From the IMG/VR virus record IMGVR_UViG_2695420600_000004: DNA of 26,045 bases; one strand, 5' to 3'. Source of the stretch: a virus. Its lineage: Duplodnaviria > Heunggongvirae > Uroviricota > Caudoviricetes. Positions within the stretch are counted from its first letter, which is position 1. Every line of letters begins with the position of its first letter. Below, in pieces: positions 1 to 3,000 of this stretch. Position numbers: made by a program.

Positions 1-3000
1 CCTCAAAAACACCATCATACACTAAATCAGTAAGTTGGCAGCATCACCAGCCTTCTTGAGGCTACCACCTGTTTTCAGGTGTCATTCAGACGTGATTTGC
101 CCCAGATTGGGAAAGCACGCTTTTTTCTCAGCTATCGTCCTCTTATTTTGCCGTTACATTTCTTTTTGCACTCTAATGATTAATTTACAATAATAATATC
201 GGTAATTATTGAGTAATAATAAATTGATTATTGCAAATGTAATTTAATTCCATCTTCGCGTTATATTCCAATCTTTAATCTCCGCATGGAACAAGTTGCA
301 TGCGTGACTATATTAAGACAACTTATAACCACCAAAACATTTGCTTTGCAAGCAAAAACAGTGACCATTGACTCTAAGAAAATTCCGATCTATTGTTAGG
401 GTCATCAAAGTTACTTAACAGTATTCCGAAATGAAAATACAAAGCAAGCTAATTGTCTTATTAAACATTATTATTGCATTTATATTATTTGAGCTTTTAG
501 CTCAAAAATTTGGTTTGAGTACATTATTTTAAAGCAAGATAAACAATATCGGGCACTCTAGTTTTTATAATTAACAATTAAACGTCCATAAAATGTTATT
601 TACTTTTCTTCGCTATTGTCATATCTTAATATAGTGGCTTACGCCACTCTACTTTCATCACATTTTGTACGTTTATGTACTCGCCATGAAGCTCTTTCAT
701 GGCGATTTTTTATTCTTAATCCAAGAACATACTCCCTACCTATAGCAAAATCACTTTTTTAACAAAAGAATAACGTATTTAGGTAATCATTACGAATTTA
801 CCCTATAGGTGCTACTGGCCATTCAATATCCGGTGCAGTTGATGTATCAACACGGTTCAGCAACACCCGATACTTTTTCCAGGCTTCCAGCAACAAGGTT
901 TCTTTCTCCGTTGCGATCTCCAGATCCACAGCATCCTGAAGCGGCGCTATATGCTCACTGGCTACCTGCATCAGGCTGTTTTTTGTTTCTTCCGCCTCCC
1001 GGATCCGGAACAGTTTTTCTGCTTCCGTATCCTTCACCCAGGCTGTGCCGTTCCACTTCTGAAACTCCCCTTCCGGGGATAACCAGGTGACATTTTCCGG
1101 TAATGAGCCGAGTTCAGAAATAAATAACGCGTCGCCGGAAGCCACGTCATAAACCGTTTTACCCCGATGATCTTCAACGAGATGCCACGATGTTTGCAGG
1201 CAGACCTGTATGAGGCGGAATATATGCGTCACCTTCACCAATAAATTCATTAGTTCCGGCCAGCAGGTTATAAATTTTTATGGTCCGTGCTTGTTCACTC
1301 ATTCTGAATGCCATTATGCGAGCCTCACAATATAGTTAAATGCGATGTTTTTGACGGTGTTTTCCGCGTTACCAGCAGCGTTAACGGTGATGGTGTGTCC
1401 ATGTGAACCAATCGCAACAGAGTGCGTATGAGCACCAATACCGACAGTATGCGCGTGTGCACCCGCAGATGCTGCTGTGCCGGACAGTGAGTGTGTATGG
1501 TTTCCTTCTGAAGATGATTTACCTACCCATTGGGAGGTGCCACTGGTTAATGAGCCACTGATACCAACCTGATTAGTCCCGCTAACTTGAGTACTCCCTG
1601 CCGGAAACATTCCAGTAGGTTGACTCCCGCTATTCGTTCTGGGCCCAGTCTGACTATGTTGGTGGGCCCCAGCTGAACTTGTAGAGCCGCTCAGACTGTG
1701 CGTATGCGCCCCGGTGTTATTCGTGGATTTAGTGCCGTAATCAAACGACGATGTGGTTTTCGTCCCCAAATCCGTACTGGATGCGCTGGCGCTGTGGGTG
1801 TGCGATTTAATGCCATCCTGTTCCTGAGACAATACGGCACGACCACTGGCGGGCTTGCCCTTAATCGTCCAGCCACGCATATCAGGGATCACGCCTGACG
1901 GATAAGCGGCTGCAAGTTTCGGGTAAGCAGATTTGTCAAAAGTCTGCCCCTGCATCAGGGCATAACCAGACGGAACGGTATCTGATGGCCACGGGATTGG
2001 TGCACCGACTGGATAAAACTCTGCAGGAGGATGAGCCGAGGTGTAAAGCTGCGCCCACGGCGACCAGTTTGCGTCGGTCGTATCCCGTCGTGAACGAATA
2101 AATGCCGGAGCATGAGCACCGCTTGTACCACTCCAGCCGATGAGTAACTCACCTTCGCCAACGGCTGTCATCCCTTTCAGGTGAATGATATTTCCATACG
2201 CTGTTGGATATCCGTTGTTATACACCTCGTATAACTCAAGACCTGCTGCCCCCTGCGTATTGTCTGTCAGCGCGGCTACCCGACCTTTTGAAGCCAGATT
2301 AACTGATGATACTGCTGTTCCACCTGACGGTAGCGCCCCGATCTCTGATGCCGTTGGCTTATTTCTGGAGTTATAGTCCCTTCGCCAGCCAGGTGAATAA
2401 TCTGTTCCGTGATTAATATAGGTAAACTGGGCGTTGGTTGTTCCGCCACCGCTGGATGTGGTCGGAGTGGTAATGCGGATCGTCATCGCTGACTTTATCC
2501 CCATTACTTCAATGACAGCTCCGGCGAGATGAATATTACCGCAGCCAGTATCAGTAATGATTTTATTATTGCCATAAGACCAGGAACCCTTGCACATCCA
2601 GTATGGATGGTTAAATGCTCCCTGAGAATCCAGCCACTCGATAAACTGTGCAGTCGTCCAGTTTCCTGTTGTTGTGCTTACTGACCCACCGAAGGCACGG
2701 CAGGCACCAATATTTTTCGTAAAGGTGTCTTTGCCAGGGATATCCGCACCGTTCTGATCTTTCTGCAGACGTTTCTCAGCATTGTCATTGGCTGCTTTTA
2801 CTGCCTTTGGCGTTGCCGCCAGCGTTTCAGACGTGCTGTTGGTCGCGCTGCTTAGCTGGATTATCCCTTTCTGTGCTGTCGTTGCATCCTGTGCGGTGTA
2901 TTTCCCGTTAGCCAGGTCATACGCGGCCTTAACGGCTTTTGGTGTTGCCGCCAGTGACTCGGAAGTGCTGTTAGTCGCACTACTGAGCTGTACTATCCCC

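What the first reader, a model, noticed from the sequence alone, without database searches (positions are those of the whole stretch)
49..797. AT-rich, gene-poor segment downstream of tfa with a small hydrophobic ORF and a terminator
Between the IS1 end and tfa lie about 750 bp of low-GC DNA with no ORF of 60 aa or more. It contains a promoter-like TTGACT-17-TATTGT (368-396), a 33-codon ORF (431-532) encoding a peptide with one predicted transmembrane helix, and a clean plus-strand intrinsic terminator (682-714). The layout resembles small membrane-protein or type I toxin-like loci, but no Shine-Dalgarno or antisense partner is evident, so this is speculative.
Basis: inference. Interest (0 to 1): 0.45.

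Follow-up and report, generated by a model that had tools for sequence, protein, structure and literature searches.

The report
Prophage gene for YncL-like membrane peptide
The AT-rich stretch beside the tail-fibre genes of this E. coli prophage carries a self-contained, conserved but unannotated mini-gene for a 33-residue membrane peptide related to the host stress protein YncL, followed by an unusually conserved RNA tail; it is a modest addition to a known family.

Summary
Window 49-797 has 31.6% GC against 54.5% in tfa/stf and no ORF of 60 aa or more. It holds a TTGACT-17-TATTGT site, a 33-codon ORF (431-532) and a strong plus-strand intrinsic terminator (681-714).

The region is composite. 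Positions 49-219 are specific to one prophage lineage. Positions 220-797 are a discrete module of about 580 bp that always abuts the 3' end of tfa. It occurs in three prophage contexts, in 831 of 5426 complete E. coli genomes, and in three isolated lambdoid phages.

The ORF is a real gene. All retrieved copies are intact. The 79%-identical allele differs at 18 nucleotides but only 5 residues (pN/pS 0.16, p about 2e-4). The peptide is a homologue of the small stress membrane protein YncL: NCBIfam E 1.3e-5, below the equivalog cut-off, and alignment score 60 against 20±4 for shuffles. RefSeq does not annotate it in any record listed.

No antisense partner or conserved fold-back was found, so a type I toxin reading is not supported.

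The most constrained piece is non-coding: an 83-nt unit at 632-714 (hairpin, linker, hairpin, terminator), 94% identical where flanks are 56-65%. It may be a 3'UTR-derived sRNA. Expression and function are untested.

The parts
1..48 (.). Terminal 48 bp of an IS1 element (context). Its insertion cuts the AT-rich region off from the AraC-family regulator gene that lies further left in intact relatives.
   Evidence: Identical to L005 5953-6000, next to an annotated IS1A transposase. The intact relative L004 has different sequence there.
49..219 (.). Lineage-specific AT-rich spacer, present only in the att-lambda/AraC prophage lineage. It contains an 85-bp piece (49-133) that also occurs near the ends of unrelated prophages.
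   Evidence: Homology to the Qin-site and sit-site variants stops at about 220. The 85-bp piece alone matches roughly 500 further genomes.
220..797 (+). Conserved moron-like module of about 580 bp, always adjacent to the tfa stop codon.
   Evidence: 822 genomes hold at least 80% of 134-797, with three different left neighbours: AraC regulator, ydfJ, sitABCD. Three isolated phages carry it. GC 0.30.
368..396 (+). Predicted sigma-70 promoter TTGACT-17-TATTGT. The implied start is near 403 and the 5'UTR about 28 nt.
   Evidence: Scan hit. Identity between the A and D alleles jumps from 45% (346-365) to 86% (366-402). The -35 hexamer is identical, the spacer length is unchanged, and T1, A2 and T6 of the -10 are kept. 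Function is not shown.
431..532 (+). yncL-like gene: a 33-aa single-pass membrane peptide, MKIQSKLIVLLNIIIAFILFELLAQKFGLSTLF.
   Evidence: Intact in all 124 retrieved copies, with 7 nucleotide alleles and 4 protein alleles. pN/pS is 0.16 and 0.05; differences fall 7/1/10 by codon position; p 1.5e-4. NCBIfam YncL E 1.3e-5. BLASTP 11/28 identities. 0 of 20000 shuffles reach the score. The start region is unpaired in the centroid fold.
632..714 (+). Ultra-conserved non-coding 3' unit: hairpin 633-648, invariant single-stranded linker CUCUACUUUCAUCAYAUUUU, weak hairpin 667-680, and terminator hairpin 681-705 with a U tract at 706-714. Candidate 3'UTR-derived sRNA or mRNA 3' domain.
   Evidence: 5 mismatches in 83 nt between alleles whose flanks are 56% (533-589) and 65% (715-797) identical. 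Fold z-score -5.3. Hairpin energies -8.9 and -14.4 kcal/mol. The overlapping ORFs on both strands show only non-synonymous or frameshifting changes (read). No Rfam family matches.
798..1314 (-). tfa (tail fibre assembly), convergent with the module; in this window a pseudogene with a 65-bp internal deletion.
   Evidence: Alignment with the intact 582-bp tfa of TUM9757. Split ORFs at 798-1250 and 1174-1314.

Best explanation
Window 220-797 is a phage 'moron': an autonomous AT-rich cassette inserted after the last late gene (tfa) of lambdoid E. coli prophages and transcribed against the late operon.

Inferred order of events. A sigma-70-type promoter at 368-396 starts a transcript near 403. From an unstructured, A/U-rich, Shine-Dalgarno-less leader, ribosomes translate a 33-residue peptide (431-532). 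The transcript ends at the intrinsic terminator 681-714, which also keeps transcription from running antisense into tfa.

The peptide is a paralogue of the chromosomal small inner-membrane stress protein YncL. It has a short positively charged N-terminus, one transmembrane helix with the family's conserved Asn12, and a K/R-F-G motif after the helix.

By analogy with YncL, whose production partly depolarises the inner membrane and condenses the nucleoid (PMC12542507), the prophage copy most likely acts in the lysogen's inner membrane to modulate membrane potential or stress state. Possible pay-offs are stress tolerance or interference with incoming phages.

The 180-nt 3'UTR ends in an 83-nt unit that is more conserved than the coding sequence. 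It probably has an RNA-level role of its own, either transcript stability or a 3'UTR-derived regulatory RNA.

Shown: the cassette's boundaries, distribution, coding constraint, YncL homology and non-coding constraint. Inferred: promoter use, translation, membrane insertion, physiological effect and any sRNA activity.
For: - Discrete module in three genomic contexts, in 831 of 5426 complete E. coli genomes and in three viable phages.
- It stays intact in heavily decayed prophages such as the Qin-site remnant L006 and in this window, where tfa is deleted and IS1 has inserted.
- Coding signature: 18 nucleotide changes give 5 residue changes, codon positions 7/1/10, pN/pS 0.16, binomial p 1.5e-4, simulation p 2.3e-4. 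There are no indels in the ORF, while both flanks have them.
- YncL homology: NF000537 E 1.3e-5 over positions 1-28 of 30; BLASTP 39% identity, 64% positives; score 60 against 20 +/- 4, with 0 of 20000 shuffles reaching it even when the transmembrane layout is kept. It is the single best YncL match among all window ORFs, 60 against 31 for the next.
- The conserved block starts at the -35 hexamer.
- A strong strand-specific terminator.
- An unpaired start region.
- YncL biology from PMC12542507 and PMC10470546. The Salmonella yncL transcript was first catalogued as the 'sRNA' STnc1110 (PMC5437024), a precedent for a short sRNA-like coding transcript.
Against: - There are no expression data of any kind.
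- There is no Shine-Dalgarno sequence.
- Promoter-like hits in the region are no more frequent than in shuffles.
- The YncL HMM score (25 bits) is below NCBI's curated cut-off (35), so it is not an equivalog.
- The family is shallow: four protein alleles, E. coli only, and nothing more distant in viral, metagenome or species-representative genome scans. The coding test therefore rests mainly on one divergent lineage.
- Mosaic recombination between alleles (L043) means that part of the identity profile could reflect exchange history rather than selection.
- The conserved block 256-345 upstream of the promoter is unexplained.
Confidence: 0.7

Rival explanations
1. The main product is a regulatory RNA. 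The 83-nt 3' unit (632-714) is released from the transcript, or made from its own promoter, as an Hfq-type sRNA that acts on host or phage mRNAs through the invariant linker. The peptide is secondary, or the locus is dual-function.
For: 632-714 is 94% identical between alleles whose neutral flanks are 56-65% identical and whose synonymous sites have largely diverged. The architecture is hairpin, 18-nt invariant single strand, then terminator with a U tract. The overlapping ORFs are not conserved as proteins. An A/U-rich stretch upstream would suit RNase E processing (sequence reading; inference). Precedents: KilS from the Rac kilR 3'UTR (PMC8175672) and STnc1110/yncL (PMC5437024).
Against: The ORF has a clear coding signature, so it is not incidental. 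No convincing internal promoter exists: the best candidate, TAATAT at 627-632, would start inside the first hairpin (sequence reading). There is too little variation to test covariation. No Rfam match. The linker pairs no better than shuffles with the chromosomal yncL leader or with its own leader. The unit never occurs without the ORF.
Confidence: 0.15
2. It is a type I toxin-antitoxin locus. The hydrophobic peptide is a membrane toxin whose mRNA is held in check by an antisense or trans-encoded small RNA, as in hok/sok, ldr/rdl or zor/orz.
For: The peptide is small and hydrophobic. YncL production depolarises the membrane and lowers viability (PMC12542507). YncL shares with HokB, HokE and others the property of RseP-dependent cleavage in vivo (PMC10470546). 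A minus-strand promoter-like site, ATGACA-18-TAACAT (622-593), could give an RNA antisense to the ORF.
Against: No minus-strand terminator lies anywhere in 1-1400. The -35 of the antisense candidate is not kept in the divergent allele. The 25-nt 5'/3' complementarity (294-318 with 624-648) loses three pairs in allele D without compensation. There are no repeats or divergent sRNA gene of the tisB/istR or zor/orz type. Alignment scores to eight type I toxins and small membrane proteins are 18-35, against 60 to YncL (comparison sequences from memory). YncL itself is not known to have an antitoxin.
Confidence: 0.07
3. It is non-functional b-region-like filler that hitch-hikes with tfa, and the conservation simply reflects recent spread and recombination of tail-fibre modules.
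For: Most copies are 95-100% identical. Alleles are mosaic. The region is AT-rich and unannotated. The family is confined to E. coli.
Against: The divergent lineage shows sharply uneven identity (45-56% against 82-94%) that follows the predicted functional elements. Synonymous changes are in excess and the ORF has no indels. Similarity to YncL is significant. The module is kept intact while neighbouring prophage genes decay.
Confidence: 0.08

Closest known systems
YncL (E. coli K-12 b4598; NCBIfam NF000537 'stress response membrane protein YncL'; Salmonella STM14_1932/STnc1110)
   Same: - Size is similar, 31 against 33 aa, with one transmembrane helix.
- The alignment is gapless from residue 1 to 28. 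M1, S5, L10, N12, A16, L19, F20, L22, F27 and G28 are invariant in the alignment of four prophage alleles plus YncL.
- Both are short, stand-alone transcription units.
   Different: - Only 35-39% identical, and 25 bits against the 35-bit equivalog cut-off.
- Prophage-borne next to tfa rather than chromosomal between patD and ortT.
- No Shine-Dalgarno, whereas yncL has AAGGTGG.
- No DNA similarity between the flanks.
- A long conserved 3'UTR ending in a canonical terminator, whereas yncL is followed by a long hairpin without a U tract.
- Two more C-terminal residues.
Lambdoid phage morons (own knowledge: bor and lom of lambda, the HK97 gp15 moron, and the concept of Juhala et al. 2000)
   Same: - A promoter-gene-terminator cassette inserted between or after late genes.
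- Base composition unlike the neighbours, 30% against 55% GC.
- Present in some relatives and absent in others.
- Positioned for expression from the repressed prophage.
   Different: - The product is only 33 aa and belongs to a host small-protein family.
- The cassette runs antiparallel to the late operon.
- It carries an exceptionally conserved non-coding tail.
- Expression in lysogens is untested.
Type I toxins (Hok, Ldr, TisB, ShoB, Ibs, DinQ, ZorO)
   Same: The peptide is small, hydrophobic and membrane-targeted. YncL-type peptides depolarise the membrane when produced (PMC12542507).
   Different: No antisense or trans sRNA partner, no conserved mRNA fold-back and no sequence similarity were found.
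3'UTR-derived sRNAs, including prophage ones (KilS from Rac kilR, PMC8175672; CpxQ and SroC from own knowledge)
   Same: The most conserved segment of the transcript is its 3' end: a hairpin, a single-stranded stretch and a Rho-independent terminator with a U tail.
   Different: There is no evidence of processing, Hfq binding or targets. The two simple target guesses failed. No Rfam family matches.

Membership tests
YncL family (NCBIfam NF000537) | Score at or above the curated equivalog cut-off (35 bits) | tested here: not met
   25.0 and 23.5 bits for the two alleles, E 1.3e-5 and 3.7e-5. It is a homologue but not an equivalog.
YncL family (NCBIfam NF000537) | Significant full-length sequence similarity to YncL that composition does not explain | tested here: met
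   BLASTP gives 11/28 identities and 18/28 positives without gaps. The local score is 60-61 against 20 +/- 4; 0 of 20000 whole-peptide shuffles and 0 of 20000 segment-preserving shuffles reach it.
YncL family (NCBIfam NF000537) | Peptide of about 30 aa with one transmembrane helix | tested here: met
   33 aa; the best 18-residue hydropathy mean is 2.87 at residues 7-24, against 2.31 at residues 8-25 for YncL.
YncL family (NCBIfam NF000537) | Chromosomal synteny (patD - yncL - ortT) | tested here: not met
   The gene is prophage-borne next to tfa, whereas K-12 yncL lies between patD and ortT. There is no DNA similarity between the flanks.
YncL family (NCBIfam NF000537) | Inner-membrane localisation, stress induction and depolarising activity | not testable with these tools
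   Known for YncL only (PMC12542507, PMC10470546).
Phage moron | Cassette inserted between or after conserved phage genes and absent from close relatives | tested here: met
   Present in 831 of 5426 E. coli genomes and 3 of 50,697 phage records. It always abuts tfa and has three different outer neighbours.
Phage moron | Own promoter and terminator | tested here: inconclusive
   The terminator is strong and strand-specific. The promoter is a 9/12 consensus match whose -35 hexamer marks the start of the conserved block, but transcription has not been shown.
Phage moron | Base composition different from the neighbouring genes | tested here: met
   GC 0.30 against 0.545.
Type I toxin-antitoxin | Small RNA antitoxin complementary to the toxin mRNA, either cis-antisense or nearby trans-encoded | tested here: not met
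   No minus-strand terminator. The antisense promoter candidate is not conserved. No suitable repeats.
Type I toxin-antitoxin | Conserved long-range mRNA structure that sequesters the ribosome-binding site (hok-type fold-back) | tested here: not met
   The 294-318/624-648 pairing is broken in allele D without compensation. The start region is unpaired in the centroid fold.
Type I toxin-antitoxin | Toxicity on expression | not testable with these tools
   Only the analogy to YncL is available (PMC12542507).
Hfq-type 3'UTR-derived sRNA | Rho-independent terminator with a U tail, plus a conserved single-stranded seed | tested here: met
   The linker 649-666 is invariant apart from one C/U site.
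Hfq-type 3'UTR-derived sRNA | Stable short RNA species, chaperone binding and base-pairing targets | not testable with these tools
   No data. Two candidate targets were tested in silico and were no better than shuffles.

The most novel reading that the evidence does not exclude
The module is a dual-function prophage locus that E. coli has domesticated. It would make a YncL-like peptide that tunes inner-membrane potential, for example to exclude superinfecting phages or to push the lysogen into a tolerant low-energy state. It would also make a 3'UTR-derived sRNA (632-714) that regulates host genes. That would explain why the module survives intact in about 15% of E. coli genomes even where the surrounding prophage has decayed.
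Probability: 0.2. Interest if true: 0.6.

Novelty: new member of a known kind. Interest (0 to 1): 0.4.

Why it matters
Small membrane proteins such as YncL are only now getting functions: membrane depolarisation, nucleoid condensation and RseP-dependent cleavage. A phage-borne paralogue would show that temperate phages have taken up this class of host stress peptide as lysogenic-conversion cargo. It is present in about one in seven complete E. coli genomes and in three viable lambdoid phages, and it was not annotated in any RefSeq record listed. It offers a natural second family member for structure-function comparison, with ten invariant positions. It is also a concrete annotation gap, because the NCBIfam cut-off excludes it. 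The strongly constrained 83-nt 3' tail is a testable sRNA candidate.

Tried and rejected
- Rfam, whole window at gathering threshold and 1-1400 at E<=1: nothing in 49-797. The only hit is IS009 inside tfa.
- Pfam and PHROGs on the peptide: no meaningful hit.
- tblastn of the peptide and of YncL against phages returned nothing, even for phages that carry the exact ORF. This is an artefact of the low-complexity filter.
- Exhaustive HMMER search against 1.84 billion representatives: only the peptide itself and a frameshifted 43-aa variant.
- An 18-mer of the conserved linker in species-representative genomes: 8 chance hits in unrelated taxa.
- Viral and metagenome scans with degenerate YncL-family patterns: only the same family at 85% identity or more.
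- Plasmids: no match.
- hok-like 5'/3' fold-back (294-318 with 624-648): not conserved.
- Internal terminator-like hairpin 488-506: its stem is broken in allele D, so it is not a conserved structure.
- Alternative ORFs: 286-399 loses its ATG in other alleles; 616-762 is frameshifted by the T-run indel; 626-700 on the minus strand has only non-synonymous changes. All rejected as coding.
- Leaderless start and a sigma-32 promoter: no conserved supporting hexamers (sequence reading).
- Linker pairing with the chromosomal yncL leader or the module's own leader: no better than shuffles.
- DNA similarity to the K-12 yncL locus or the DLP12 tfaX-appY region: none.
- Full-text search for the peptide and DNA strings: 0 papers.
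- Covariation test of the 3' hairpins: not attempted, because 632-714 has too few variable sites.
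Full report
**1. Observation.**
- Window 49-797 has 31.6% GC, against 54.5% for the adjacent tfa/stf genes.
- It has no ORF longer than 52 aa.
- It holds the promoter-like TTGACT-17-TATTGT at 368-396.
- It holds an ATG-initiated 33-codon ORF at 431-532.
- It holds a plus-strand intrinsic terminator: a 10-bp perfect stem at 681-705 (-14.4 kcal/mol), followed by T6.
- Window 1-48 is the end of an IS1, identical to the same junction in strain AR_0369, where the IS1A transposase is annotated.
- The promoter match by itself is not above chance: 6 sites against 4.0 +/- 2.0 in shuffles.

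**2. Context.**
The window is a lambdoid prophage integrated at the bio/ybhB side of attB-lambda. J, lom, stf and tfa lie on the minus strand.
- In intact relatives the AT-rich DNA continues leftwards for about 750 bp to an AraC-family regulator gene. These relatives are phages mEp332, PhiR70_1 and ev099, and strain TUM9757.
- That regulator is 28% identical to AppY.
- In the window, IS1 has cut this connection.
- tfa in the window carries a 65-bp internal deletion, so the prophage is defective.

**3. The region is composite.**
Searches of 5426 complete E. coli genomes separate three kinds of match.
- 280 genomes hold at least 80% of 49-797.
- About 540 hold only window ~220-797, at 78-96% identity.
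- About 500 hold only an 85-bp piece (49-133). It recurs near the ends of unrelated prophages.

The segment 220-797 always abuts the tfa stop codon but has three different outer neighbours:
- the AraC cassette at att-lambda;
- the ydfJ junction of a decayed Qin-site prophage;
- sitABCD in an icd-site prophage.

It is therefore a discrete, mobile module of about 580 bp. It was not found on plasmids. In the phage collection, only three E. coli lambdoid phages carry it. An 18-mer from it is absent from species-representative genomes outside chance hits.

**4. The ORF is a gene.**
- Across all copies retrieved from E. coli genomes, IMG/VR and metagenomes (124 instances, some duplicated), the 33-codon frame is intact. 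There are 7 nucleotide alleles and 4 protein alleles.
- The most divergent allele (D) sits in a module about 79% identical overall. It differs at 18 of 102 nucleotides, distributed 7/1/10 over codon positions, but at only 5 residues, none of them at the ten family-invariant positions.
- Nei-Gojobori pN/pS is 0.16, with an excess of synonymous changes at p 1.5e-4. Randomly placed substitutions give an intact ORF with 5 or fewer residue changes in 0.023% of trials.
- A second allele gives pN/pS 0.05.
- There are no indels in the ORF, although a 5-bp deletion follows the stop codon directly and both flanks carry indels.
- One frameshifted copy exists in public data (P0018).

**5. The peptide is a YncL homologue.**
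- NCBIfam returns a single hit, NF000537 'stress response membrane protein YncL'. E is 1.3e-5 over model positions 1-28 of 30, and the score of 25 bits is below the 35-bit equivalog cut-off.
- BLASTP against K-12 YncL gives 11/28 identities and 18/28 positives, with no gaps from Met1.
- The local alignment score is 60, against 20 +/- 4 for shuffled peptides. None of 20000 shuffles reaches it, even when the N-terminal, transmembrane and C-terminal segments are shuffled separately. Hydrophobic composition therefore does not explain the match.
- Ten positions are invariant in the alignment of four prophage alleles plus YncL: M1, S5, L10, N12, A16, L19, F20, L22, F27, G28.
- Among all window ORFs it is the only YncL-like one, 60 against 31 for the next.
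- None of the listed RefSeq records annotates it. It appears only twice, unnamed, in a collection of 15 billion proteins.

**6. Expression signals.**
- Between alleles A and D, identity is 45% at 346-365 and rises to 86% from 366, at the -35 hexamer.
- TTGACT is identical, the 17-bp spacer length is kept, and T1, A2 and T6 of the -10 are kept. There is no indel between the -35 and the ATG. This supports the promoter better than the consensus match does.
- The implied 28-nt leader has no Shine-Dalgarno sequence. It is A/U-rich and unpaired in the centroid fold of 403-714, which is compatible with SD-independent initiation (inference).
- The frame closes at a TAA five codons upstream of the ATG, so there is no alternative start (sequence reading).

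**7. The strongest constraint is non-coding.**
- Between A and D, 632-714 has 5 mismatches in 83 nt (94%). The segments on either side are 56% (533-589) and 65% (715-797) identical, and the ORF is about 82%.
- The unit folds into hairpin 633-648 (-8.9 kcal/mol), an 18-nt single strand CUCUACUUUCAUCAYAUUUU, a weak hairpin at 667-680 and the terminator. The z-score is -5.3.
- The few substitutions in stems are compatible with pairing: C638U gives G-U and G691A gives A-U. A705C opens only the terminal pair.
- There is too little variation for a covariation test.
- ORFs overlapping the unit on either strand change only non-synonymously or by frameshift.
- A plain terminator does not need an invariant single-stranded linker. 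An RNA-level function is therefore likely: transcript stability or a 3'UTR-derived sRNA.
- No Rfam family matches. Two obvious target guesses, the chromosomal yncL leader and the module's own leader, score no better than shuffles.
- One allele (L043) switches from type C to type D inside this unit, so it also serves as a recombination crossover.

**8. Type I toxin-antitoxin reading.**
- No minus-strand terminator exists in 1-1400.
- The single antisense promoter-like site (622-593) loses its -35 in allele D.
- The 25-nt complementarity between 294-318 and 624-648 loses three pairs in allele D without compensation.
- The locus may still work somewhat like a mild membrane toxin, because YncL production depolarises the membrane (PMC12542507). 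It does not meet the defining features of a type I system.

**9. Most likely mechanism.**
The cassette is a moron expressed from the prophage. Its peptide inserts into the inner membrane as a single helix and, like YncL, perturbs membrane potential or stress physiology.

Published knowledge about YncL:
- It rises on minimal medium and heat shock. When produced it causes sub-lethal depolarisation and nucleoid condensation (PMC12542507).
- It shows RseP-dependent cleavage in vivo (PMC10470546).
- In Salmonella it is sigma-S dependent and was first catalogued as the 'sRNA' STnc1110 (PMC5437024).
- Its mRNA is a RIL-seq partner of RprA and of the Rac-prophage 3'UTR sRNA KilS (PMC8175672; bioRxiv 10.1101/2025.09.11.675593).

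The module stays intact inside heavily decayed prophages, which suggests a benefit to the host. Whether that benefit is stress tolerance, phage exclusion or something else is inference only.

**10. Novelty and limits.**
This is a new, divergent, phage-borne member of the YncL small-protein family, in classic moron packaging. It has an unusually conserved 3' RNA domain, and I found no annotation of the ORF or mention of its sequence in the sources searched.

Limits:
- The evidence is entirely comparative.
- The family is shallow and confined to E. coli.
- The promoter, translation, localisation and any sRNA activity are unproven.
- The conserved block 256-345 upstream of the promoter remains unexplained.

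Noticed in passing
window 798-1314 (deletion between 1190 and 1191): tfa carries a 65-bp internal deletion relative to the intact 582-bp gene of strain TUM9757. This splits it into two overlapping ORFs, so with the IS1 insertion the prophage is probably defective.
   Followed up: yes
window 838-1036, minus strand: A full-length Rfam hit to IS009 (RF02111, 218 bits) lies entirely inside the tfa coding sequence. Whether it is more than conserved coding sequence was not examined.
   Followed up: no
window 49-133: An 85-bp piece with two short hairpins recurs at 93-100% identity in roughly 500 E. coli genomes that lack the rest of the region. It lies near the ends of other prophages, for example beside DUF1076 genes next to uspF in O26, and beside a diguanylate cyclase cargo gene. 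It sometimes abuts a short ORF annotated 'capsid protein'.
   Followed up: partly
L004 5826-5890 (outside the window, left of the IS1 junction in intact relatives): By eye, the minus strand reads like the 3' part of a tRNA-Ser gene (TGGCGGAGAGAGGGGGATTTGAACCCCCGGTAGAG...). ARAGORN finds no complete tRNA. It is probably an att-site relic marking the edge of the AraC-regulator cassette.
   Followed up: partly
L004 4501-5244, minus strand: In intact relatives the next gene beyond the AT-rich DNA is an AraC-family regulator of 247 aa, 28% identical to the DLP12 regulator AppY (E 2e-35). It is followed by IS remnants. IS1 separates it from the module in the window's lineage.
   Followed up: partly
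L007 4892-4991; L009 3892-3991; A1 columns 50-150: In the Qin-site and sit-site variants the module's left edge abuts a second 3' remnant of a tfa gene in the same orientation. The module is thus bracketed by tfa 3' ends, which suggests it moved by recombination between tfa genes.
   Followed up: no
L043 (IMG/VR contig 2690316068_000004), region equivalent to window 590-730: This allele is mosaic: type C up to the terminator hairpin and type D after it. The ultra-conserved 3' unit therefore serves as a recombination crossover point.
   Followed up: partly
window 256-345: A second conserved, indel-free block lies upstream of the predicted promoter (81-92% identity between alleles, against 45% for 346-365). 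It has no conserved ORF, hairpin or convincing promoter on either strand. Its function is unexplained.
   Followed up: partly
window 2993-3769, inside stf (1314-4403, minus strand): The N-terminal half of the 1029-aa Stf protein is a long Ala/Ser/Thr-rich low-complexity repeat. It also generates a spurious 258-aa alternative-frame ORF.
   Followed up: no
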